Positions 44,705 to 62,976 are shown, counted from the first letter of the stretch. The stretch: DNA of 64,000 nt from Candidatus Kaiserbacteria bacterium CG10_big_fil_rev_8_21_14_0_10_47_16 (GCA_002773395.1 PFBI01000006.1:335860-399859), one strand, 5' to 3'. Notes: a model not told the origin generated them from the sequence alone. Numbers and translations: made by a program.

Positions 44705-46411
44705 TCAGACTGTGTCCTCAGAATCTTGGTCTGTATCAAGATCAGGCGCCTCTTCAGTGGTGCGAGTGTTGTGAAGATCGATCACACGTTCGAGCTCATC
44801 GAGGGAGGTGATGCCGGCGAGAACTTTTTCAATACCGTCTTGCGCCATACTCGGAATATCTTGTTTCTTCGCTGCGGCAAGAATGTGTATTTCACGAGGA
44901 TCACGAATGACCGCTTCCTCGACGGCGGTGTCAACGCGAATTGCTTCAAAGACACCTTTGCGTCCCTTGTATCCACTTCCACCACATGCGGGGCAACCCT
45001 TTGGTTCGTAGATGGTGTGCTGCGCAACTGGTTCGTCCATGATTTGTGCAATGAGTGTTTGTTCTTGTGTAGTTGCGTCACGCTGTACTTTGCATTCATT
45101 ACAGAGAAGACGAACCAAGCGTTGTCCGAGGATGAGATTGACGGAACTGCCGATTGTACGGGCATCAACACCGAGGTCGAGTAGACGAGGGAAGGCAGCT
45201 GCTGCGCTGTTTGTGTGGAGTGTGGAGAAGACGAGGTGACCGGTGAGCGCCGCGTTCATGGCGGTTTCCGCTACCTCGCGGTCACGGATCTCACCGACCA
45301 TAATAATGTCGGGGTCTTGCCGGAGAATTGCACGAAGACCTTGCGCGAAGGTGTAATCTTCTTCAATTTGGGTCTGTACGATTCCAGGGAGCTTATATTC
45401 AACAGGATCTTCAATGGTCACAATCTTTGTTTCGGGCGTATGGACTTTTTGCATGAATGCGTAGAGTGCGGTTGTTTTTCCTGAACCGGTTGGACCGGTA
45501 GTAATGATGGCGCCATTTGGTCGTACGAGCTCTTCAAGAACGACGGCTTTGAGTTTGTCATTGAGACCTAGACCTTCAAGGGTAAACCCAGATGCGTCAG
45601 GGTCGAGGAGACGCATTACGACAGACTCACCGTATGCACCAGGAATGACTGATGTACGCACTTCGATCTTGCGTGTACCCACGTCGAAGGTGAAGCGCCC
45701 GTCTTGTGCTTCGTTGTGAATATTGAGGATAAGGCCAGAGAGAAGTTTTATACGAGACGTAATGAGTGTGTAGATTGTTTTGTCGGCATTGGTAATATCC
45801 CACAACACACCATCGAGACGGTATCGAAAACGCACGGTGTTTTGTTCTGGTTCAATGTGGATGTCAGATGCACCGAGCGCGAGTGCGCCCGCGAACAGTA
45901 CCTCGATAGTACTTGTTGCACGCTCTGTTTTATTTGTTTGCTGTACTTCAAGGATTTTGGTTGCAACGTCGAGGTGCGTTTTAATTTCTGCAGCGAATGC
46001 GGTAATGGCGGCAGGACTGATGTCGAGGACACCCTGCTTCTCAGCTGTTGCAGAGAGAACGTCTTTGTAGCGAAGCCACGCATGGTCGAGACTTGCGAGC
46101 GTAACGAGGTATCCGGTAATGGTGTAGCCGCGTGACTCAAGAGATTGGAGCACCTCTTCGGTCTTCGGATTTTCAGGATTTTGAATAGCGACAGAAAGCT
46201 GTTTGTTTTGTTCGAGGAATGCAGCAACCTGAGCTTCGCGAGCAACCTTTTCAGGAATGAGCGCAAGCGCATCGGTATCGATGGTAATACCGTGGAGATT
46301 GGTATATCCGAGGTTGTAGTTTGGGGCCAGCATGCGGGCAGCGTTCTCCTCCGCGCTGTGTCCAAGCGATTCGAGCTTTTGATTGATACGCGTGTCATCA
46401 AACTGTGGCAT
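44705..46411 (-). CDS. pilB: Type IV pilus / type II secretion family assembly ATPase (PilB/GspE)
   Basis: Walker A GPTGSGKTT, Asp and His boxes and a tetracysteine Zn motif (CNEC...CPACGGSG). Confidence 0.85.
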   Translation of the reverse strand: MPQFDDTRINQKLESLGHSAEENAARMLAPNYNLGYTNLHGITIDTDALALIPEKVAREAQVAAFLEQNKQLSVAIQNPENPKTEEVLQSLESRGYTITGYLVTLASLDHAWLRYKDVLSATAEKQGVLDISPAAITAFAAEIKTHLDVATKILEVQQTNKTERATSTIEVLFAGALALGASDIHIEPEQNTVRFRYRLDGVLWDITNADKTIYTLITSRIKLLSGLILNIHNEAQDGRFTFDVGTRKIEVRTSVIPGAYGESVVMRLLDPDASGFTLEGLGLNDKLKAVVLEELVRPNGAIITTGPTGSGKTTALYAFMQKVHTPETKIVTIEDPVEYKLPGIVQTQIEEDYTFAQGLRAILRQDPDIIMVGEIRDREVAETAMNAALTGHLVFSTLHTNSAAAAFPRLLDLGVDARTIGSSVNLILGQRLVRLLCNECKVQRDATTQEQTLIAQIMDEPVAQHTIYEPKGCPACGGSGYKGRKGVFEAIRVDTAVEEAVIRDPREIHILAAAKKQDIPSMAQDGIEKVLAGITSLDELERVIDLHNTRTTEEAPDLDTDQDSEDTV

Positions 46412-53969: not shown

Positions 53970-54542
53970 TTATTTCCCAAGAATCTGAAGCGCAGCTTTA
54001 ATGCGGGCATTCGTTTCCGTGATGTCCTCAGCAATGACGGCGAGGACGTCTCGCGCATCGCGCTGAGTATACCCAAGCGCAATGAGCGCATCAAGAACAT
54101 CGCTGTCACCGCTGTGTATATGTGGTGCAGGAGAATCGTCCCGTGTGAAGGCGTGCATTTTATCTTTGAGCTCAAGGATTATTTTTTCGGCAGTCTTTTT
54201 CCCGATGCCGGACATCTTTGCGAGATACGAGGCGTCTTGTTTTGCGATTGCAGTATGGAGCAGTTTTATATCGGCCTGCGAAAGAATTTGGAGTGCTGAT
54301 TTCGGACCAATCTTAGGCAAGGTAAGAAGGAGCTCAAACATCGCGAGTTCATCGTCGGTAATAAACCCATAGAGGTCGAGCGCGTTCTCGCGCACCGCAA
54401 GGTGTGTGTAGAGGCGAACAGATTCACCGAGTGCAGGGTGCGTGTGCGCAGGCATTGCCACCTTGTAGCCGATACCGCCTATCTCAATAACGACAAATTC
54501 AGCGCAACTTTCAATAATAGTGCCAGAAAGACTTCGAATCAT
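53970..54542 (-). CDS. ruvA: Holliday junction DNA helicase RuvA
   Basis: OB-fold N-terminus, two HhH motifs (LLTLPKIGPKSA..., MSGIGKKTAEKI) and a C-terminal domain III. Confidence 0.85.
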   Translation of the reverse strand: MIRSLSGTIIESCAEFVVIEIGGIGYKVAMPAHTHPALGESVRLYTHLAVRENALDLYGFITDDELAMFELLLTLPKIGPKSALQILSQADIKLLHTAIAKQDASYLAKMSGIGKKTAEKIILELKDKMHAFTRDDSPAPHIHSGDSDVLDALIALGYTQRDARDVLAVIAEDITETNARIKAALQILGK

Positions 54543-54608: not shown

Positions 54609-55949
54609 ATGAAAGCCATCATTCGAAATATCGTTATTGTGCCAGTTCTTGCACTCAGTCTTATAACGCCAGCGCTCGCTCAAACCACTACGCCGACAGA
54701 AAATGCACCCGAAGCGCCGAAAGGATTGCCGGCATGCGGTGCGTGGTATCAGTCTAATAAAACCCCAATCGCACTTACTGCGAGCGCAGAATCGGTGGCT
54801 GCGGGCGAGACGGTTTCATTTTCAGGAACCCTCACCAATGAAGCGCCATATGCAATTGCAGATATGAATGTGTACGTAAAGGTATTTCGCGACCGCACAC
54901 CAGGAGCGCGTGATGTAAATGGACCTGACGTTGTCGATTGGTTCCATGCGGTGTCAGACATTTCTCTGAAAGCGGGGGAGTCACGGTGGGTAACTATTTC
55001 ATGGAAGGTGCCGACAGGAGCACAACCGGGGCGATATACACTCGGTACCTATGTGACCGGTTCGGATCAGTTCGATCTCCAAGGCCTCACTTTTTCTGAT
55101 GACGCTGTGGGGAACATTACGAACTTCACTGTTACCGGTGACGATAATGGTGCGCTCGTTTTTGATAAAACATCAGTAACCGTAGCGGGGCAACCCTTCT
55201 ACTTTGCAACCTTCCCGCCCGTTGTGCTCGCGACGAGTTCGGTGGTCATTACTGCCGATATTGCAAACAGTATGGAAGATACGGTCAGAGGGACAGTTAC
55301 GTGGAAGTTGTACTCATGGGACGGCATTAGTGAAGATCGGCTCATTGAAGAATCGCACGATGACATTACACTCCCAACAAAATCAAAAGCAGCGCTGACG
55401 TATACCGTGACGGACACTGCGCACAGCGTGTACTACCTTGTGGGTGACGTTGTTGCAGAAAATGGAACGCGTTCCGTCATTGGCGCACGCTTCCTCCGTA
55501 ATGGTGTTGATGAACCGCGCTTCTCTGCAGCAGGCTCAGATTATCCGCTCGTTGGAGGAGAGAGTAAGCTCTTTGTCTGCGCGCAGAATGCAGGAAACCG
55601 TATTGCGAAAGACGTTGTCTTCAGTGTACTCGTTGTGCCACATGGGGTACGCAGCCTTTTCGGCCCTGTTGCGGAAGCGACATACGAAGGAGGATTTCCT
55701 CCGAGCGCACTCGCGTTGCCACTGCAAGCACAAAAGTCAGCAACATCATTTGATGTTATTGCACGCCTCACACAGAATGGCACGGTCATTGATTCGATCA
55801 CCATTCCATATAGTTGTAGTGCCCTTGGAACACCCTGCAATATTCTTGATACATGGTATTTACTCTACGTGGCACTAATTCTCGTTCTTCTCATTGCGCT
55901 CGCGCTCTATATACGTACACGTCGCCGTAAAAAAAGAATGTACACGTAG
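54609..55949 (+). CDS. Hypothetical cell-surface protein (signal peptide, beta-rich ectodomain, C-terminal TM anchor with a basic tail)
   Basis: N-terminal MKAIIRNIVIVPVLALSLITPALA and C-terminal LLYVALILVLLIALALYIRTRRRKKR. The track ORF begins at 54402, overlapping ruvA. Confidence 0.55.
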   Translation: MKAIIRNIVIVPVLALSLITPALAQTTTPTENAPEAPKGLPACGAWYQSNKTPIALTASAESVAAGETVSFSGTLTNEAPYAIADMNVYVKVFRDRTPGARDVNGPDVVDWFHAVSDISLKAGESRWVTISWKVPTGAQPGRYTLGTYVTGSDQFDLQGLTFSDDAVGNITNFTVTGDDNGALVFDKTSVTVAGQPFYFATFPPVVLATSSVVITADIANSMEDTVRGTVTWKLYSWDGISEDRLIEESHDDITLPTKSKAALTYTVTDTAHSVYYLVGDVVAENGTRSVIGARFLRNGVDEPRFSAAGSDYPLVGGESKLFVCAQNAGNRIAKDVVFSVLVVPHGVRSLFGPVAEATYEGGFPPSALALPLQAQKSATSFDVIARLTQNGTVIDSITIPYSCSALGTPCNILDTWYLLYVALILVLLIALALYIRTRRRKKRMYT

Positions 55950-56040
55950 TGTGTAGACGTGTGCTTGTCCCCAAAATAACGATACGTATGTGTATCGGCA
56001 AAGTGCTACACTAAGTAAAACGTGCTCGCACGTGTATTGT

Positions 56041-57072
56041 ATGGACACTGCTTCGCAACAACTGACGTCAAATTATACTTTGCTAAAAAGAGAGCGAAGA
56101 GGCATCCCACATGCGTTTGTTGTCATTACTATTATTGTTGGAAGTGTGTGGCATTTGTGGCAAGTTCAATACGCACACGTAACTCCACAACGTACAGGGG
56201 GAGAACTCGCTGCACTTTCGGGAGATCTTATTTTTCATACCGGGACACCAATTGAGCAGGCAAACGGGGCTGAGCTTTTGGGTATTGTGGTCTATTCTTC
56301 TGACACACCTGAACTCAGCACCGTACTTTCATCTGATGAAAACCTTTTTATATCAGGAGCAGCGCTCTCACCTGATCGAAGTCGCGCTGCCGTTGCTTCA
56401 AATATTTTTGGCGGGGAGACTGCAACCGTACAGGTTGTAACATTGAGTACCGGAGAACGAACGGTGATTGATGAAGGCGTCAGTGTCCTTTTTGGAACGC
56501 CGATTTGGTCAGCTGATGGAAGTACTTTTGTGTATACACGCGCAACACTCGACCCGAATGCAGACGGAGACGATGCACTCACCGCCATTACAGAAGAACA
56601 TATGGTGAAAGTGTCAGCCGTAAGTGGCAGTCGTGTGGATAGAGGCGAGGGGACACCCGTGGCGCTTTCACCAGATGGAAAGGCAATTCTCTCTCGTACT
56701 ATAAACGGCACGCTCGTATTTCAAGATCAAGAAGGTGTGATCACCGACCTTGAAGGAACAGATACAACAGAAATTCTTATGTGCGCCCAATCACTCGATG
56801 GGTCGCGCCTTATTTTGATACAGGGTGGCAAGGCGGCACTCTATACTATTGATTGGGGCACCCTCACACTCGGAGAAGGGGTTAGTATGGGTGACGGATA
56901 CACGAGTGCAACGTTCGATCAGTCAGATGCAATGGCACTCCTCCGTACTGATGGATCTGTTGATGTATTTCATATAGAAAACGAAACACCGGTCTTCGCT
57001 TCAACGTATCGCCTGACGATGGATGTGACTGCACAGACAACAACACTCCTTGATTGGATTAATCCGCAATAA
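56041..57072 (+). CDS. Membrane-anchored beta-propeller-like protein (TolB/PD40-like repeats), copy 1
   Basis: N-terminal TM (AFVVITIIVGSVW) and repeated LSPDGK / WSADGS motifs. Paralogous to 58557-59606. The track ORF starts at 55990. Confidence 0.5.
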   Translation: MDTASQQLTSNYTLLKRERRGIPHAFVVITIIVGSVWHLWQVQYAHVTPQRTGGELAALSGDLIFHTGTPIEQANGAELLGIVVYSSDTPELSTVLSSDENLFISGAALSPDRSRAAVASNIFGGETATVQVVTLSTGERTVIDEGVSVLFGTPIWSADGSTFVYTRATLDPNADGDDALTAITEEHMVKVSAVSGSRVDRGEGTPVALSPDGKAILSRTINGTLVFQDQEGVITDLEGTDTTEILMCAQSLDGSRLILIQGGKAALYTIDWGTLTLGEGVSMGDGYTSATFDQSDAMALLRTDGSVDVFHIENETPVFASTYRLTMDVTAQTTTLLDWINPQ

Positions 57073-57076
57073 CGGT

Positions 57077-58474
57077 ATGCAACATTTACGCACAAAAGTA
57101 TCGCTGCGACACCTACTCATATATATAGGAGTAGCACTTGTACTCGTGGGCTCACTCGCGTCATTTACCGATGCGAGTAGCACCACATTTCGTGCAGGAC
57201 TCCAAGCAGCTGATTCCAGCGGATGCGGAAATCGTGTCGGCACGGCGCAGTACACACCAGACAGTAGTAGTGCAGGATGGTCATCCTATGCATACGATGG
57301 AGGAGGTACGGATGTGACATGCTTTAAAGTGTATTCAGATCCAGGACCAGCGAGTATGGATGTTCGTGTGTGTGTTCAGGCGTATAACAATGGTGTGGTG
57401 TACGCAGAACGATGTACGAATTGGGCCTCTGCAGGTGGTGGATGGTCATCGTATTCTTCAGATAAAGATCTCGATGCAGCGCGCATTAAGGTGGAAAATA
57501 GAGCAATGCCGGCCAACCAAACACTTGCCAGTACATACCTTGGTATACAGCTCGCAAAGGGAACAAATGGCGCGTGTAACCAACCGGGTGCAGCGCGATA
57601 CACGTCAACAAGTGGTGGGTGGTCGAGTTGGGCACTCGACGGATCAGCAGGGGATGCAGATTGCATCCGAGTATTTCTCGGTGCAACCGTTGATACTGCA
57701 ATTTATCCAACAGTGAGTTTCTCTGCAAATCCATCAGTCATCGTGTCGGGCAACTCATCGACGCTCACATGGAGCGCAAGTAACGCGACGAGTTGTACGG
57801 GGTCTGGATTTTCTACCGGAAATGCAACGAGCGGAAATAGAAGCGTCTCGCCAGTCGTTACGACGCAATATAGCGTGCGCTGCTATTCTTCAACAGGACA
57901 CTCAACAATTAAATATGCGACCGTTACCGTAAACAGTCCGACGCCAACAGCGACACTCGAGGTTCGCAATGATACAACAGGGGGTACATATACAGGAAGC
58001 AACATCACGATTAATCAAGGAGAACAAATTAGTCTCAAGTGGAGCTCGAGTAACGCCACCAGTTGTGCAGGAAGTAATTTCTCAACGGGTGGAGCAACGA
58101 GCGGTACACAAAGTTCAATAAATGAACCGGCAGTAGGGAGTAGCGTAACGTACACCCTTATTTGTACTGGCTCAGGAGGCTCAGGAAACGACGCGCTCGT
58201 GGTGACGACAGTAGCACTTCTTCCGCCAACACTCACGTCGCCGCAAGAAGGGGAGCCGGTGCGTCGAAGTGATTCCGCAACGCTTAATTGGAACCTCAAT
58301 GGAAACAATCCTGCGCAGTGTTCATTTACGGGGACAGGAGTCCCGAGCAGTATTAGTGCGCAGACAGGGTCATTCAATATTACGGTAGAGGGAGAATCGA
58401 CAATAACACTCACGTGCCCAGGAGGGAGTGATGATGTTACGATCACCATCGTTCCACAAGTTTTCGAACAGTAA
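57077..58474 (+). CDS. Secreted protein with an N-terminal duplicated Cys/Trp-rich domain and three Ig-like repeats (LTWSASNATSC...TYTLxC), copy 1
   Basis: Signal anchor, and internal repeats read directly. Paralogous to 59603-62290. The track ORF begins at 57050. Confidence 0.55.
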   Translation: MQHLRTKVSLRHLLIYIGVALVLVGSLASFTDASSTTFRAGLQAADSSGCGNRVGTAQYTPDSSSAGWSSYAYDGGGTDVTCFKVYSDPGPASMDVRVCVQAYNNGVVYAERCTNWASAGGGWSSYSSDKDLDAARIKVENRAMPANQTLASTYLGIQLAKGTNGACNQPGAARYTSTSGGWSSWALDGSAGDADCIRVFLGATVDTAIYPTVSFSANPSVIVSGNSSTLTWSASNATSCTGSGFSTGNATSGNRSVSPVVTTQYSVRCYSSTGHSTIKYATVTVNSPTPTATLEVRNDTTGGTYTGSNITINQGEQISLKWSSSNATSCAGSNFSTGGATSGTQSSINEPAVGSSVTYTLICTGSGGSGNDALVVTTVALLPPTLTSPQEGEPVRRSDSATLNWNLNGNNPAQCSFTGTGVPSSISAQTGSFNITVEGESTITLTCPGGSDDVTITIVPQVFEQ

Positions 58475-58556
58475 TTTTTCTTGTCCACAAAAGAAGCGCA
58501 ACGGCGAAGCCGTTTTGTGTACTCATGAGTGATACACTTATTCTATATAGTCATAT

Positions 58557-59606
58557 ATGGATACCACTCTTTATACACAACCAGAGGGATATGGTGCATC
58601 AAAAAGTACCAAAGCATCAATCCCGACAGCGTTTGTTATTATTACCGTTATCGTGGGGGCAGTGTGGCACGTCTACCAACAAGGAGGACTTCAGTTTCTG
58701 CCGCTAGACCGCAATACGGCACATATTGAAAGTGAAGGGAACCTTCTTCCGGGAGATATTATGTTTTTTACAAAAACACCTCTCGAGTATCCTGATGGCA
58801 CACAAACATACGGTGTCGCGCTCCACTCGAGTGACGGTGTCGTCTCAGATGTAGTTCCTATTACACCGGAGTTACCGATGACGGATGTGAGCAGCTCGCC
58901 GAGAGGAGATATGTTGGCAGTGGTGTATAACGGCTTTGGTAGGGAACCATCACGAATTGAAATTATTACGATTGATGGTCGTGATCGACAGGTTGTTGCA
59001 GAAGCAGACGATGTATTTTTCTCTACACCGGTTTGGTCGGGTGATGGCGAGAGTATTCTGTATGCGCGTAACACTCTCGATCATTCGTTGCCGAGAGAGG
59101 ATGTGGTTGCTCACCCAAGTAAGCGAGAGCTCGTGCGTCTTTCTCTAAGGGACTCCGCTACTGCGACAATCGGAGAAGGTATTCCGATTGGGCTCTCTTA
59201 TGATGGTACACAGTCACTTCTAGTTAACTCGTCGGACGAGCTTGTTATGACAAATGCAGACGGTACACAGAAAGTACTCGCGCCGCTCGGTTCATTTGAA
59301 TATTTTGAAAGTAGTCTGTCACAAGATGGTCGTACGGTAGTGGTAGTAGTCGATGATCGCGTCCAGATCATGACACTCAATTGGAAACTGAACACGGTTG
59401 AATTCCAAACAGCGTTCAATGATGTTGTAATGAGTTCCGTGTTTGATCAAGGGGGAACTCCTCTGCTTCTTTTCCCGAACGGTACCCTCAGAACATATGC
59501 GCTCACCGATCTGGGGTGGATACCGGTTGAGAAATATACTGTGCGAGCACAGTTTCAGGATGGTGCGGTAAAGTTACTTCGTTGGAATAATACAATGTCA
59601 CTATGA
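58557..59606 (+). CDS. Membrane-anchored beta-propeller-like protein, copy 2
   Basis: Same architecture as 56041-57072 (TM AFVIITVIVGAVW; SSPRGDMLAV and WSGDGESILY repeats). Confidence 0.5.
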   Translation: MDTTLYTQPEGYGASKSTKASIPTAFVIITVIVGAVWHVYQQGGLQFLPLDRNTAHIESEGNLLPGDIMFFTKTPLEYPDGTQTYGVALHSSDGVVSDVVPITPELPMTDVSSSPRGDMLAVVYNGFGREPSRIEIITIDGRDRQVVAEADDVFFSTPVWSGDGESILYARNTLDHSLPREDVVAHPSKRELVRLSLRDSATATIGEGIPIGLSYDGTQSLLVNSSDELVMTNADGTQKVLAPLGSFEYFESSLSQDGRTVVVVVDDRVQIMTLNWKLNTVEFQTAFNDVVMSSVFDQGGTPLLLFPNGTLRTYALTDLGWIPVEKYTVRAQFQDGAVKLLRWNNTMSL

Positions 59607-62290
59607 TGTCTATGCAGCACATACAACATATTCTGAAGATAGTGTCTCTAACTCTGTTCATTTTCGGCGGATTTGTCATGCTCCCATCTCAAGTAGAGGC
59701 GAGTGGGACAACACTTGTTGCGGGACTTCGGGCAATGGACGTCAATAGCCAGTACTGTTCCCAGCGTGAAGGTTCACCAGGATATACGCCAGATACAACA
59801 AGCGCTGGCTGGTCGTCTCTCGTGCGAGACACAGGAGGGGCCGACATCAGTTGTGTAAAAGTATATGCAGACCCTGGGCCATCAACGAAAGATGTTCGAA
59901 TTTGTATACAATTAGAAAACAACGGAACGTATTTTTCTTCAGTCTGCACGAGCTGGGCCTCAGAAGGTACAAACGGTGATAGTGTGTCCTCATGGTCTGC
60001 AGGGAAAGACAATGACGGCATTCGCATTTCGGTTGAGAACAGAGATATGCCGTCAGGGCAGACGATAAGCGATGTTCAGCTTGGCATCCAGCTTTCAAAA
60101 AAGAATAGTGGTATATGTAATCAGCCTGGTACTACTCAGTACACGCCGATTGGTGGAGGGTGGTCATCTTATGCTGTTGATGGGGGCAACGGGGGATACG
60201 GAGGAGACTTTGACTGCACGAAGGTATATCTGAACTCAACCATCACCACAGCACCGAGCCCAATATATCCAACGGTTACATTGACCGCAGATCAAAACCC
60301 AATCACTACAGGGGGATCCACCACACTCCGTTGGACTTCAAGTAATGCGTCATCATGTAGCGCAATTGCAGGAAGTGGATTCTCAGTGAGTTCTACAAAC
60401 GGAAGTGACGGAATTTCACCAACCTCTTCCCAAACATATACAATTCGCTGCTATTCATCGACGGGGCACAGCTCCTCAAAGTCAGTGAATATGGTGGTGA
60501 ACGCTGCGACAGCCCCCACAGCATCACTTTCTGCGAGCAGTAACTCGGTGTCATCAGGAAGTACGGTGACACTCACGTGGTCTTCAACAAACGCAACGAG
60601 TTGTTCAGGTACGGGGAGTGGCTTCGCAACAGGCAACGCAACCAGTGGAACAGACACCGTAAACCCAACTGTCGACACTACTTACACACTCACGTGTACT
60701 GGCACTGGTGGCACAGGTACTGATTCAGAAACAATTACTATTATTGTCACAGGTCCGCCGACCGTAACACTTACCGCAACCCCTTCCACGTTTGCGTCAG
60801 GTAGCTCGTCGACACTTACGTGGTCATCGTCTGGCGCAGACACTTGTAGCTCTTACGGATCACCTAGTTTTTCAACCGGAAATGCAACGAGTGGTTCTGT
60901 TTCTATTTCTCCAACAACAAATACTACGTACACCATCCGGTGTTATAACGCCTATGGATATACCAATGCGACCGCAACAGTTACCGTAACTGCGAGCGGG
61001 GGTACAGATCTTATTTCAGCAACACCGACACTTTACTCGGGTTCACTCACTGCAGGAAGTTCGCTCAGGTTTTCAAGTGTAGTTACAAATCAAGGCACTG
61101 TGGATACGTCAACATATTTCTACACTCTCTTTCAAATTGATGTTGATAATAACGGCAGTTATGACTGGACGTACGATTCCTACAATGGAACATTAGCAGC
61201 AGCAAACTCGGCTACGCAAGTAGCAACAAGTTGGACAGCGCTAGGTGGCACGCATTCGGTACGAGCATGTGCGGATACGCATTCATCAGGAGGTTCGAGC
61301 AATAATCGTATTACTGAGAGTGATGAGACCAACAACTGTAGTGCAGCGTATACGTTTACGGTCAGTGCAGCAGACCTCGTGACTGCAACACCAACCATTT
61401 CCCCTACTTCACCTATTGCAGGGAATACGATAACGTTCTCTGCAGTGGTTACAAACCAAGGAAGTGTGGACGCAGGAAGTTCGCCAACGCTCTTCGAGCT
61501 CGATATAAATAACGACGGTAGCTACGATTGGACAGGGAACAGTGGTGTAGGTTCGATTAACGCAGGGAGTACTCGAACCTACACACCAAACGGTGCAAAC
61601 AGTACACAAACAACGTGGACCGCAACTGCGGGGACACACACCATTCGCGCCTGTGCGGATAATTATTATCCTGATGGAAATTTCTGGGATAATCGTGTGA
61701 CAGAAAGTGATGAAAATAACAACTGCGCAACGTACACGTTTACGGTTGTAAACCCTGTACCGACCGCAACGCTTGAAGTACAAAATACGACAACCGGCGG
61801 TGCGTACACAACCAATGACATCAGCATTAGTAATGATGATCAGATCGCGCTTCGGTGGTCTTCAACGAATGCAACTTCATGCTCGGGATCAAACTTCTCT
61901 GCAGGAGGAACAACGAGTGGAACGCAGAGTTCTATTACTGAGCCGAGTCCTGGAAGTAGTACAACGTACACGCTTGTGTGTACAGGTGCTGGAGGGACAG
62001 GGAGCGACCCGCTTACGGTAACAACTGCAGCACTCTCGCCACCGACACTTACCTCAACACAGTCGGCCGAACCAGTTCTCTTAGGAAGCTCCGCAACGTT
62101 CAATTGGAACCTTAACGGAAATACCCCAGCCCAGTGTTCATTTGTTGGTAGTGGCGCCCCAGGGTCTATCAGTGCCCAAACAGGCTCATTCAACACAACG
62201 GTGCAAGGAGAAACCCGAGTGACGCTGTCGTGTCCGGGAGGTAATGTGTCGGTAACCGTCCGTGTGATTCCGAAGGTGTACGAGGAATAA
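59603..62290 (+). CDS. Large secreted protein (895 aa) with the same N-terminal domain and at least six Ig-like repeats plus two internally repeated insert domains, copy 2
   Basis: Motif blocks (GWSS...DG...DC.KVY, L.W(S/T)SSNA(T/S)SC, TYT(L/I).C) are shared with 57077-58474, and the C-terminal 90 aa are nearly collinear. Confidence 0.55.
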   Translation: MMSMQHIQHILKIVSLTLFIFGGFVMLPSQVEASGTTLVAGLRAMDVNSQYCSQREGSPGYTPDTTSAGWSSLVRDTGGADISCVKVYADPGPSTKDVRICIQLENNGTYFSSVCTSWASEGTNGDSVSSWSAGKDNDGIRISVENRDMPSGQTISDVQLGIQLSKKNSGICNQPGTTQYTPIGGGWSSYAVDGGNGGYGGDFDCTKVYLNSTITTAPSPIYPTVTLTADQNPITTGGSTTLRWTSSNASSCSAIAGSGFSVSSTNGSDGISPTSSQTYTIRCYSSTGHSSSKSVNMVVNAATAPTASLSASSNSVSSGSTVTLTWSSTNATSCSGTGSGFATGNATSGTDTVNPTVDTTYTLTCTGTGGTGTDSETITIIVTGPPTVTLTATPSTFASGSSSTLTWSSSGADTCSSYGSPSFSTGNATSGSVSISPTTNTTYTIRCYNAYGYTNATATVTVTASGGTDLISATPTLYSGSLTAGSSLRFSSVVTNQGTVDTSTYFYTLFQIDVDNNGSYDWTYDSYNGTLAAANSATQVATSWTALGGTHSVRACADTHSSGGSSNNRITESDETNNCSAAYTFTVSAADLVTATPTISPTSPIAGNTITFSAVVTNQGSVDAGSSPTLFELDINNDGSYDWTGNSGVGSINAGSTRTYTPNGANSTQTTWTATAGTHTIRACADNYYPDGNFWDNRVTESDENNNCATYTFTVVNPVPTATLEVQNTTTGGAYTTNDISISNDDQIALRWSSTNATSCSGSNFSAGGTTSGTQSSITEPSPGSSTTYTLVCTGAGGTGSDPLTVTTAALSPPTLTSTQSAEPVLLGSSATFNWNLNGNTPAQCSFVGSGAPGSISAQTGSFNTTVQGETRVTLSCPGGNVSVTVRVIPKVYEE

Positions 62291-62362
62291 CATTGAGCGA
62301 GCGTATTGCACGGGCTATGGAAATGGGGTATAGTGTGGCCCACTAACGATTTATATTTTACG

Positions 62363-62626
62363 ATGGCAATTACAAAAGGAGCACAAAAAGCACACCGATC
62401 ATCGCTTAAGAAGCGTGTATTCAACACACGTCGCAAAAATGCAATGAACGATGTGGTAAAGAAAATCCGTAAGGCAGCGCTCGGCGGCGAAGCGAAGGAA
62501 GCACAAAGTATGCTTCCGGCAGCGTACAAAGCCATCGATAAGGCAGCGAAAGGTGGTTTGATTAAGCCAAACACTGCAGCACGAAAGAAGTCTCGTCTCG
62601 TTGCGGCTATCAAGCGCGCGAAGTAA
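62363..62626 (+). CDS. rpsT: 30S ribosomal protein S20
   Basis: MAITKGAQKAHRSSLKKRVFNTRRKN... is typical of S20. The track ORF begins at 62306. Confidence 0.85.
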   Translation: MAITKGAQKAHRSSLKKRVFNTRRKNAMNDVVKKIRKAALGGEAKEAQSMLPAAYKAIDKAAKGGLIKPNTAARKKSRLVAAIKRAK

Positions 62627-62642
62627 TCTTTCTGGATTTTAG

Positions 62643-62669
62643 AAAAGGGCCCCTTGGGGCCCTTTTTGT
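62643..62669 (+). terminator. Rho-independent terminator after rpsT (GGGCCCC-TTG-GGGGCCC + T5)
   Basis: GC-rich stem followed by a U-tract. Confidence 0.65.
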
Positions 62670-62976
62670 TGTGGAATTCTGCCACGTTAGTGTGCGGCAC
62701 TTGTTTCGTTGGTTCGGGGATCGACCCCCTTTCGAAGCGCTTCCGCTACACGGATTCTCTCTTCGCATGCGGCACATCCTTCGGCCTTGGCTTTGACGCG
62801 AGCTCCGCGGTCGAGCCCATTATACGAGGTAGAGATTTCTTTGTCTGTGATGCAGACGTGTGGGGCAGTGTTCCTGTCCATGAGGACACCTTTCTTTTGT
62901 GCAGGTCTCTTGTTTATAACTTTGAGTAGAGAGAGAAAGTAACAAAACCGGCGCATATGCACCGGATTTGATTGTT

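What the first reader, a model, noticed from the sequence alone, without database searches (positions are those of the whole stretch)
55990..62290. Tandemly duplicated two-gene surface module: TM-anchored beta-propeller-like protein plus large secreted Ig-repeat protein (two diverged copies)
Genes 56041-57072 / 57077-58474 and 58557-59606 / 59603-62290 are clear paralogous pairs. Both propeller-like proteins share the N-terminal TM and PD40-like repeats. Both secreted proteins share an internally duplicated N-terminal Cys/Trp domain, repeated Ig-like units with a strict L-W-SS-NA(T/S)-SC ... TYT-C signature, and an almost collinear C-terminal 90 aa. Copy 2 has expanded to at least six Ig repeats plus two extra insert domains (...CAD(T/N)...ESDE(T/N)NNC..YTFTV). 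Each pair overlaps by 4-20 nt, suggesting co-translation. This looks like a duplicated and diversifying adhesin or S-layer-like cassette, plausibly under host- or phage-driven selection. The propeller partner may be a dedicated anchor or chaperone.
Basis: seen in the sequence. Interest (0 to 1): 0.65.

Follow-up and report, generated by a model that had tools for sequence, protein, structure and literature searches.

The report
Duplicated membrane-propeller plus secreted-protein surface module
An uncultivated groundwater bacterium (Candidatus Kaiserbacteria) carries two old tandem copies of a gene pair, a membrane-tethered beta-propeller followed by a secreted chain of disulfide-bonded beta-sandwich domains. 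The same pairing recurs in related genomes, so it is probably a real, so far unnamed, cell-surface display or adhesion unit and not a chance arrangement.

Summary
A1 (56041-57072) and A2 (58557-59606) are full-length paralogs (29% identity, E 3e-43). B1 (57077-58474) and B2 (59603-62290) are collinear at both ends (46% and 66% identity, E 5e-84 and 9e-77). A is an N-terminal TM helix plus a roughly 6-bladed propeller (AF2 pLDDT 83). B has a signal peptide, a triplicated Cys/Trp N-domain with no Pfam, PDB or BFVD relative, Ig-like repeats (two CARDB inserts in B2) and a conserved C-terminal domain.

Corrections: B2 has 4 canonical repeats plus one terminal variant, not six or more. Only A2/B2 overlap (ATGA). 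The N-domain is triplicated, not duplicated.

New context: an A-like gene followed within 26 nt by a protein carrying the C-terminal domain recurs in about 9 other Parcubacteria loci, four times as a double pair. The upstream gene U0 (54609-55949) often travels with it. The C-terminal domain always ends the protein, with a conserved tail (consensus NV[IV]PxFxEF-COOH; here VPQVFEQ and IPKVYEE).

Diversifying selection is unsupported: synonymous sites are saturated and three assemblies are identical. Best reading (inferred): Sec-exported, fibrillar-adhesin-like proteins held at the membrane by a co-expressed partner. This is a new variant of a known kind.

The parts
54609..55949 (+). U0: signal peptide, about 390-aa beta-rich ectodomain, C-terminal TM helix and RRRKKR tail (type I membrane protein). 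A third gene that co-occurs with the module.
   Evidence: ORF. Only weak beta-sandwich Pfam hits (Mannosidase_ig, NEW3, DUF11, CARDB), all below cut-off. Homologs lie next to A and/or tail-bearing proteins in L008 (54.5% identity), L011 (36%), L023 and L027. Eight further Patescibacteria loci were found. No PDB sequence relative.
56041..57072 (+). A1: N-terminal TM anchor plus a roughly 6-bladed beta-propeller (343 aa).
   Evidence: PD40 22.6 bits. AF2 model pLDDT 83, pTM 0.77, helix 22-44, about 25 strands. Foldseek against PDB gives 1355 propeller hits at E<1e-3. The conserved MDT start is shared with A2 and L008.
57077..58474 (+). B1: secreted 465-aa protein. Signal peptide 57077-57175, triplicated N-domain 57176-57706, Ig-like repeat 1 57707-57940, repeat 2 57941-58210, C-terminal domain 58211-58471 ending VPQVFEQ.
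   Evidence: N-domain AF2 model pLDDT 88, pTM 0.85.
58500..58514 (.). Hairpin AACGGC-GAA-GCCGTT in the 82-nt B1-A2 spacer, followed on the + strand by TTTGTGT. Possibly a terminator separating the two pairs.
   Evidence: Sequence. The scan reported it only on the - strand, so it is a weak call.
58557..59606 (+). A2: paralog of A1 (349 aa), TM anchor plus propeller.
59603..62290 (+). B2: secreted 895-aa protein. Signal peptide 59603-59701, N-domain 59702-60256, Ig-like repeats 1-3 60257-60982, CARDB 1 60983-61357, CARDB 2 61358-61747, Ig-like repeat 4 61748-62026, C-terminal domain 62027-62287 ending IPKVYEE.
   Evidence: (CARDB 49 bits).

Best explanation
This is a chromosomal cell-envelope module of a Parcubacteria-type (Candidatus Kaiserbacteria) genome.

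Shown or read from sequence:
- B1 and B2 are exported by Sec (cleavable signal peptides, read from the sequence).
- Outside the cell they would form a string of beta-sandwich domains, each with one Cys pair (three pairs in the N-domain).
- The domain order is a three-fold repeated N-terminal domain, then a stalk of Ig-like repeats (plus CARDB in B2), then a constant C-terminal Ig-like domain. That last domain always ends the protein and carries a conserved free-carboxyl tail.

Inferred:
- B has no membrane or wall anchor of its own. It is therefore retained at the surface non-covalently by membrane-tethered proteins made from the same transcript.
- The candidates are the type II propeller A encoded immediately upstream (translationally coupled, one A per B) and possibly the type I protein U0 at the head of the cluster.
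- The constant C-terminal module would be the membrane-proximal docking end. The N-domain would be the distal ligand-binding tip, perhaps binding glycan.
- The two pairs would then give a short (3 beta-sandwich domains after the tip) and a long (7 domains) version of the same device. For an episymbiotic CPR cell the likely use is attachment to a host or substrate surface.

The duplication is ancient and both copies are under purifying selection.
For: - Topology and domain order.
- No known anchor in B: no Pfam or NCBIfam hit to LPXTG, SLH, LysM or Por_Secre_tail at E<=1, and the C-terminus is not hydrophobic.
- Tight coupling of A to B in every locus, from -4 to +26 nt: window, L008, L013, L022, L023 and the P0134 contig, L026 and L027.
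- The gene downstream of A carries the C-terminal domain in 6 of 6 complete cases. The 317-337-aa upstream partners in L026 and L027 are remote A homologs (hhalign 95.6%, E 1.3e-8).
- Membership is kept while gene order and genomic position change: U0-A-B-A-B (window, L008), B-U0-B-A (L011), A-B-U0 (L023), U0-B-A-B-A-B (L027).
- In other lineages a non-homologous small TM protein of 136-165 aa sits in the same upstream slot of proteins with the N-domain, in 4 of 4 cases. hhalign against A gives 0.3% probability. This suggests the requirement is a membrane-tethered partner, not a particular fold.
- The C-terminal domain is terminal in 44 of 120 homologs, with tail consensus NV[IV]PxFxEF. It is the most constrained part of B (66% identity against 46-54%).
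- In L011 two paralogs share 990 identical nt at the 3' end but differ upstream, giving a constant anchor part and a variable passenger.
Against: - No interaction was tested, and no complex prediction was possible.
- A1 and A2 are only 29% identical while the C-terminal domains of B1 and B2 are 64% identical. A therefore does not co-diverge with the domain it is proposed to bind.
- The tail also occurs in loci with no A (L001, L006, L015). A cannot be its universal receptor.
- U0 similarity does not track tail type. The U0 of L014 is 43% identical to the window's U0, yet its neighbours end in FNWKEVAP.
- The Ig-like fold of the repeats is inferred, not modelled. The best PDB profile hit is an 'Immunoglobulin-like domain protein' at E 0.54.
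- The ligand-binding role of the N-domain rests only on its position and on conserved Trp/Asp residues. Foldseek finds nothing significant; the best hit is CBM6 at E 0.059, TM 0.2.
Confidence: 0.45

Rival explanations
1. Two-component S-layer or envelope lattice. B proteins tile the cell surface as a canopy, and A (and/or U0) is the membrane stalk. The analogy is with SlaA/SlaB of Sulfolobales or the propeller-plus-PKD S-layer proteins of Methanosarcina.
For: - The second-best Foldseek hit of A is the tandem YVTN propeller plus PKD from an archaeal surface-layer protein (1l0q, E 1e-9).
- B is very rich in Ser/Thr/Gly (38-43%), acidic and poor in Lys, as many S-layer proteins are (my own knowledge).
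- The cluster sits among housekeeping and ribosomal genes in several lineages.
- S-layer appears in CPR groundwater papers found by full-text term search. I did not read them for this point.
Against: - There are two or more paralogs per genome with different lengths and variable N-terminal passengers (L008_356 lacks the N-domain). S-layers are usually built from one dominant protein.
- No SLH or other S-layer family hit.
- The Cys-pair-per-domain design and the tip-stalk-base order fit adhesins better.
- No expression data are available.
Confidence: 0.2
2. A is not an anchor. It is a membrane-tethered, extracytoplasmic folding, quality-control or maturation factor dedicated to its downstream B, acting as a scaffold while the disulfide-bonded domains fold. 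B is then released or held by something else, such as U0, the wall, or a general receptor for the tail.
For: - There is one A per B, tightly coupled.
- A diverges fast (24-38% identity) while the C-terminal domain is conserved. That fits a partner adapted to the variable part of B.
- The tail occurs without A in other lineages.
- The non-homologous small-TM proteins associate with the N-domain (4 of 4), including L004, where B lacks the C-terminal domain.
Against: - The propeller has no catalytic or known chaperone domain. The protein ends after the propeller. Peptidase_S9_N matches are below cut-off and there is no hydrolase domain.
- In L011 two B genes share one A.
- Nothing here distinguishes transient from stable binding.
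Confidence: 0.2
3. Extracellular substrate-capture proteins. The N-domain is a carbohydrate-binding module and the proteins serve nutrient scavenging, not cell-cell adhesion.
For: - The same Ig-like repeat is attached to glycoside hydrolases, lactonase-type propellers and LamG domains in homologs (Pfam columns; P0070 has Laminin_G_3).
- The best, though non-significant, fold hit of the N-domain is CBM6.
- The N-domain repeats contain conserved Trp and Asp.
Against: - B1 and B2 contain no enzyme domain.
- The fold match is not significant (TM 0.2).
- This rival differs from the best explanation only in the ligand, not in the architecture.
Confidence: 0.1

Closest known systems
Fibrillar adhesins (tip adhesive domain, repeated stalk domains, cell anchor; Monzon et al. 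2021, PMC8286594)
   Same: B has a signal peptide, an N-terminal non-repeat domain, tandem Ig-like and CARDB stalk domains and a constant C-terminal module. That paper notes that nearly half of fibrillar-adhesin-like proteins have no recognised anchor.
   Different: B has no known adhesive domain and no known anchor (LPXTG, SLH, LysM, CHU_C, Por_Secre_tail). Retention is proposed to go through a separately encoded membrane partner. The proteins are short (465 and 895 aa) compared with typical fibrillar adhesins.
TolB / PD40 and DPP-IV-N-type beta-propellers (PF07676, PF02897, TIGR02800)
   Same: A has PD40-type blades and a propeller fold. TolB structures (2w8b, 9a2l) are among the Foldseek hits. 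UniRef names A 'Dipeptidylpeptidase IV N-terminal domain-containing protein'.
   Different: A has no TolB N-terminal domain and scores 13.7-17.5 bits against a TIGR02800 cut-off of 343. It has no peptidase domain. It is anchored by an N-terminal TM helix, the host is assumed to lack an outer membrane, and it is always followed by a secreted protein carrying the C-terminal domain.
Type IX secretion C-terminal domain (CTD) of Bacteroidota cargo (PMC4804311)
   Same: A conserved beta-sandwich domain of about 85 aa lies at the extreme C-terminus of secreted proteins with varied passengers, and it is the constant part of the family.
   Different: There is no sequence match to the T9SS CTD models. 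No T9SS or outer membrane is expected in Patescibacteria (my own knowledge). Nothing here indicates cleavage.
Sulfolobales SlaA/SlaB and Methanosarcina YVTN-PKD surface-layer proteins (1l0q)
   Same: A membrane-anchored partner and a large beta-sandwich-rich secreted protein are encoded side by side. Propeller plus Ig/PKD-like domains appear in a surface structure (for 1l0q; the SlaAB gene arrangement is from my own knowledge).
   Different: No sequence homology was shown. Here the propeller and the Ig chain are separate polypeptides, there are several paralogs per genome, and lattice formation is unknown.
CARDB (PF07705) domain proteins
   Same: The two B2 inserts are bona fide CARDB domains (49 bits). 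CARDB recurs in the B-like proteins of L001, L008, L011 and L023.
   Different: CARDB is only one interchangeable stalk element. The N-domain and the C-terminal domain that define the family have no model.

Membership tests
PD40 / WD40-like beta-propeller repeat (PF07676) | HMM score above Pfam's gathering threshold | tested here: inconclusive
   A1 scores 22.6 bits against 20.9, so it passes. A2 scores 14.0 bits and fails. The exhaustive profile search of A1+A2 gives 1197 hits at E<1e-3, mostly multi-blade proteins with several matched stretches.
PD40 / WD40-like beta-propeller repeat (PF07676) | Beta-propeller fold | tested here: met
   AF2 model pLDDT 83, about 25 strands after the TM helix. 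Foldseek against PDB returns propellers throughout the 50 best listed hits (WD40, YVTN, TolB, lactonases), TM about 0.5; 1355 hits at E<1e-3 in all.
TolB (TIGR02800) | Full-length equivalog score (cut-off 343 bits) including the N-terminal domain | tested here: not met
   13.7 and 17.5 bits, covering only one or two blades.
Prolyl oligopeptidase / DPP-IV (S9) | Catalytic alpha/beta-hydrolase domain after the propeller | tested here: not met
   A ends right after the last blade (343 and 349 aa, all-beta). Only Peptidase_S9_N matches appear, below cut-off (21 and 16.6 bits against 24).
CARDB (PF07705) | HMM score above gathering threshold | tested here: met
   B2 scores 49 bits against 22.7, E 7.4e-13, in two stretches. 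B1 has none.
Fibrillar adhesin (PMC8286594) | Tandem stalk domains | tested here: met
   B1 has 2+1 and B2 has 4+1 Ig-like repeats, plus 2 CARDB in B2. Repeat-to-repeat HMM E-values run from 1e-3 to 2e-10 and BLAST reaches 5e-10.
Fibrillar adhesin (PMC8286594) | Recognised adhesive domain | tested here: not met
   The N-domain has no Pfam, NCBIfam or PDB sequence hit and no Foldseek match in PDB or BFVD.
Fibrillar adhesin (PMC8286594) | Recognised cell anchor (LPXTG, SLH, LysM, CHU_C, Por_Secre_tail and others) | tested here: not met
   No such Pfam or NCBIfam hit at E<=1 in B1 or B2.
Fibrillar adhesin (PMC8286594) | Demonstrated binding to a host or surface ligand | not testable with these tools
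   The organism is uncultivated and no experimental data were found.
Sortase substrates (LPXTG anchor, TIGR01167) | LPXTG motif, hydrophobic segment and basic tail at the C-terminus | tested here: not met
   B ends in ...VPQVFEQ and ...IPKVYEE with no hydrophobic segment. U0 has a TM segment and a basic tail but no LPXTG motif, and scores 13 bits against 15.9.
T9SS C-terminal sorting domain | Match to Por_Secre_tail / TIGR04183 | tested here: not met
   No hit in Pfam or NCBIfam.
T9SS C-terminal sorting domain | Conserved beta-sandwich at the extreme C-terminus of diverse cargo | tested here: inconclusive
   The position is met: 44 of 120 homologs have the domain reaching the last residue. The fold was not modelled. 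Passenger diversity is limited mostly to Ig, CARDB and PKD-type domains.
S-layer protein with membrane stalk (SlaA/SlaB type) | Lattice formation and high abundance | not testable with these tools
   No imaging or expression data are available.

The most novel reading that the evidence does not exclude
The constant C-terminal beta-sandwich, with its invariant position at the very end of the protein and its conserved free-carboxyl tail (NV[IV]PxFxEF-COOH), may be a Patescibacteria-specific surface-retention or sorting signal. A second tail type, FNWKEVAP-COOH, occurs in Moraniibacteriota and Staskawiczbacteria. The signal would be read by dedicated membrane-tethered receptors encoded next to the cargo: U0, the A propeller, or the small TM protein. 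That would be a non-covalent protein-anchoring system without sortase or outer membrane, playing the role that LPXTG/sortase or the T9SS CTD plays elsewhere, for the host-contact proteins of episymbiotic ultra-small bacteria.
Probability: 0.25. Interest if true: 0.75.

Novelty: new variant of a known kind. Interest (0 to 1): 0.5.

Why it matters
Parcubacteria and other CPR bacteria are thought to live attached to other cells. The proteins that make that contact are almost entirely unannotated. All five genes here are 'hypothetical protein' in both NCBI records.

This locus offers a recurring, recognisable unit: a membrane partner, a secreted multi-domain protein with a constant C-terminal module, and often U0. 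It also offers three sequence families without a Pfam or NCBIfam model (the triplicated N-domain, the terminal domain with its tail, and U0). These could be turned into profiles to catalogue candidate host-contact proteins across the radiation.

If the terminal domain and tail prove to be a retention signal, that would add a new way of displaying proteins on a bacterial surface. It would also help explain why so many fibrillar-adhesin-like proteins lack a known anchor.

If instead the proteins are simply secreted Ig-repeat proteins with a neighbouring propeller, the finding is an ordinary lineage-specific surface gene cluster.

Tried and rejected
1. Recent gene conversion as the reason for the higher C-terminal identity of B1 and B2. 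Rejected: pS is 0.79-0.80 there, as saturated as elsewhere. DNA repeats between the pairs reach only 157 nt at 71% identity.
2. Not estimable because dS is saturated. The nearest relative (L008) is only about 55% identical, and the only other assembly of this population is 100% identical.
3. A word-based homolog search for A found only A1 and A2 themselves. The exhaustive profile search was needed to find relatives.
4. A genome-contig scan with the A alignment failed for lack of a conserved stretch, then found nothing. The metagenome scan with the C-terminal domain gave one irrelevant locus (L025).
5. Homology between the small TM partner and A. Rejected: hhalign probability 0.3%.
7. Enrichment of N-glycosylation sequons in B. 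Rejected: counts equal the composition-shuffled expectation.
8. Mobile-element or island origin. Rejected: GC is flat, the flanks are housekeeping genes, and the ruvA...rpsT position is syntenic in L001 and L008.
9. Co-variation of U0 with tail type. Not seen.
10. Five literature searches found no description of this module.


Full report
**1. What is in the window**

Region 54.4-62.3 kb carries five + strand genes between ruvA (53970-54542, minus strand) and rpsT (62306-62626):
- U0, 54609-55949
- A1, 56041-57072
- B1, 57077-58474
- A2, 58557-59606
- B2, 59603-62290

GC content is the same as the surroundings. The sequence belongs to a Candidatus Kaiserbacteria / Parcubacteria MAG. Locus tags are COU16_03640-03655 and GW943_02970-02990, the longest contig is 624 kb, and all five products are 'hypothetical protein' at NCBI. 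An independent JGI assembly is 100% identical over 19.4 kb.

**2.

A1 and A2 align end to end (29% identity, E 3e-43). B1 and B2 are collinear at the N-terminus (364 aa, 46%, E 5e-84) and at the C-terminus (184 aa, 66%, E 9e-77), with extra domains in the middle of B2.

Start codons are supported by homology. A1, A2 and the L008 ortholog all begin MDT..., and MQH... of B1 aligns with MMSMQH... of B2. With these starts, the A1 stop and the B1 start are 4 nt apart, and A2/B2 overlap by ATGA. An 82-nt spacer with a hairpin separates the two pairs.

**3. Anatomy of A**

A has a basic stretch, one TM helix (residues 22-44 in the model) and then an all-beta domain of about 25 strands. The AF2 model has pLDDT 83 and pTM 0.77. 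Foldseek against PDB returns only beta-propellers: WD40, an archaeal S-layer YVTN propeller, TolB and lactonases, with TM about 0.5.

Pfam PD40 is just above threshold for A1 and below it for A2. TolB and S9-peptidase models are far below cut-off, and no catalytic domain follows the propeller.

An exhaustive profile search found 1197 proteins at E<1e-3. Only about ten are full-length relatives of 317-372 aa, and all complete ones have an N-terminal TM helix.

**4. Anatomy of B**

Signal peptides are read from the sequence (...SFTDA|SS and ...QVEA|SG). The domains are as follows.

- *N-domain* (about 180 aa, three Cys pairs). It is a triplication of a 55-60-aa unit: strand, C, G..YTP, GWSS, D..D.C.R[IV]Y. 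hhalign gives r1-r3 98.7%, r2-r3 92.7% and r1-r2 81%. AF2 gives a compact all-beta model (pLDDT 88, pTM 0.85). It has no significant Foldseek match in PDB or BFVD and no Pfam, NCBIfam or PDB sequence hit. It is rare: among 120 homologs it occurs only in P0003, P0004 and P0070, and weakly in P0009. It always follows the signal peptide directly.
- *Ig-like repeats* (80-90 aa, one Trp and one Cys pair each). B1 has two and B2 has four. The repeat is promiscuous: it occurs in 116 of 121 hits, joined to glycoside hydrolases, lactonase propellers, FN3, PKD and CARDB domains.
- *CARDB*. B2 has two CARDB domains.
- *C-terminal domain* (about 87 aa). It is a divergent copy of the repeat with the same Cys pair.

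B is 38-43% Ser+Thr+Gly and about 1% Lys.

**5. The C-terminal domain is the most informative part**

In 44 of the 120 homologs a full-length match to this domain reaches the last residue of the protein. The final residues are conserved, with consensus NV[IV]PxFxEF-COOH. The window has TIVPQVFEQ and RVIPKVYEE.

No Pfam or NCBIfam model covers the domain, even in canonical members.

It is the most constrained part of B1 and B2. That constraint is not recent gene conversion, because synonymous sites are saturated in every segment (pS 0.68-0.80) and DNA-level repeats are weak. In L011, by contrast, two paralogs share 990 identical nucleotides (330 aa) at the 3' end and differ upstream. The family therefore behaves as a constant C-terminal module plus a variable passenger.

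**6. Conserved neighbourhood**

| Locus | Arrangement |
|---|---|
| L008 (nearest relative, same ruvA...rpsT position) | U0(451)-A(348)-B(356)-A(358)-B(883). The short B has another N-terminus but the same last two domains. |
| L013 | A(350)-B(854+), 4-nt overlap |
| L023 | A(349)-B(1163, ...NVIPDFQEF)-U0 |
| L011 | B-U0-B-A |
| L022 and the P0134 contig | A followed within 1-12 nt by a gene cut off by the contig end |
| L026 | Two pairs of a 319/337-aa TM protein followed by a ...NVIPKFIEF protein |
| L027 | U0-B-(326)-B-(317)-B |

The 317-337-aa partners in L026 and L027 are remote A homologs (hhalign 95.6%, E 1.3e-8 over 197 columns).

So the A-to-B pair, often doubled and often with U0, keeps its membership while order and genomic position change. 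That is the classical signature of functional linkage.

In L001 (the same ruvA...rpsT slot), L004 and L006, the gene upstream of each N-domain protein is instead a 136-165-aa TM protein unrelated to A. L001 again has two tandem pairs.

**7. U0 and tails beyond this family**

U0 homologs occur in Moraniibacteriota, Staskawiczbacteria, bins labelled Saccharibacteria and other Parcubacteria. In all 12 loci examined before L027, a large protein with a conserved extreme C-terminal tail lies beside U0 or is fused to it. The tail is either the PxFxEF type or, in Moraniibacteriota and Staskawiczbacteria, FNWKEVAP-COOH. L027, examined afterwards, shows the same thing. This pattern was noticed post hoc and has no formal statistics. 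U0 similarity does not track tail type.

**8. Mechanism**

*Shown:* topology, domain order, tight coupling, conserved adjacency, absence of a known anchor in B, and strong constraint on the terminal module.

*Inferred:* B is retained at the cell surface through a membrane-tethered partner (A and/or U0). The constant C-terminal module is at the base and the triplicated N-domain is the distal ligand-binding tip. The two pairs give a short and a long version.

*Points against a simple 'A binds the tail' model:* A diverges much faster than the terminal domain, and the tail occurs without A.

*Rivals:* an S-layer-type lattice with a stalk, A as a dedicated folding or maturation scaffold, and substrate capture instead of cell adhesion.

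**9. Selection**

The 'diversifying' reading has no support. dN/dS cannot be estimated between the paralogs or against L008, pN is well below pS throughout, and all available assemblies of this population are identical.

**10. Comparison and novelty**

The parts belong to known kinds: a PD40-like propeller, CARDB and Ig-like repeats. The overall layout is that of a fibrillar adhesin. That class is known to often lack a recognised anchor (PMC8286594).

What I could not find described, in Pfam-A, NCBIfam r20, PDB, or five full-text literature searches, are the following:
- the triplicated N-domain;
- the terminal domain with its conserved tail;
- U0;
- the recurring partner-plus-cargo gene pairing.

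I therefore rate it a new variant of a known kind, of moderate interest. The more novel possibility is that the terminal domain and tail form a Patescibacteria-specific retention signal (probability about 0.25).

Noticed in passing
window 54609-55949 (U0); L008, L011, L014-L021, L023, L027: The gene just upstream of the finding encodes a signal peptide, a beta-rich ectodomain and a C-terminal TM helix. It has homologs across several Patescibacteria classes. In the 13 U0-containing loci examined (window, L008, L011, L014-L021, L023, L027), a large protein with a conserved extreme C-terminal tail lies beside it or is fused to it.
   Followed up: partly
L014 5492-18543, L016 3767-6391, L018 13310-16501, L019 7865-9769: A second conserved tail type...FNWKEVAP-COOH, ends the large proteins next to U0 homologs in Moraniibacteriota and Staskawiczbacteria (variants YNYKEVSP, TNYREVAP, WKEISPFQ, NWKEVNPN). 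P0078 also ends in DYNWKEVAP.
   Followed up: partly
L001 4760-5257 and 7216-7668; L004 544-954; L006 7514-7990: In relatives, each protein with the Cys/Trp N-domain is preceded by a 136-165-aa N-terminally TM-anchored beta-rich protein instead of a propeller. It has no Pfam or NCBIfam family and is not homologous to A.
   Followed up: partly
L011 1098-2087 and 4994-5983: Two paralogous tail-bearing genes share a 990-nt, 100% identical 3' part (330 aa) but differ upstream. This indicates recent duplication or conversion of the constant C-terminal half.
   Followed up: yes
window 57077-57355 and 59603 onward: Public gene calls disagree. JGI calls B1 from Met94 (372 aa) and calls B2 as a 396-aa fragment. 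The GW943 record calls A1 as 330 aa and B2 as 870 aa. The COU16 record matches the homology-supported starts.
   Followed up: yes
window 58500-58514: A GC-rich hairpin (AACGGC GAA GCCGTT) followed by TTTGTGT lies in the B1-A2 spacer. It may terminate the first pair's transcript. The scan listed it only for the minus strand.
   Followed up: no
window 61840-62700 (- strand): A 286-aa antisense ORF overlaps the 3' end of B2 and all of rpsT. It is probably spurious, since both sense genes are conserved.
   Followed up: no
L006 5341-7041; L023 3531-4166; L001 14565-15075; L008 14174-14982; window about 44705-46411 (L024 133-1839): Type IV pilus genes (T2SSE/PilB ATPase, an N_methyl pilin, PilM) lie within a few kb of the module in several loci. 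This could be chance in these small genomes and was not tested.
   Followed up: no
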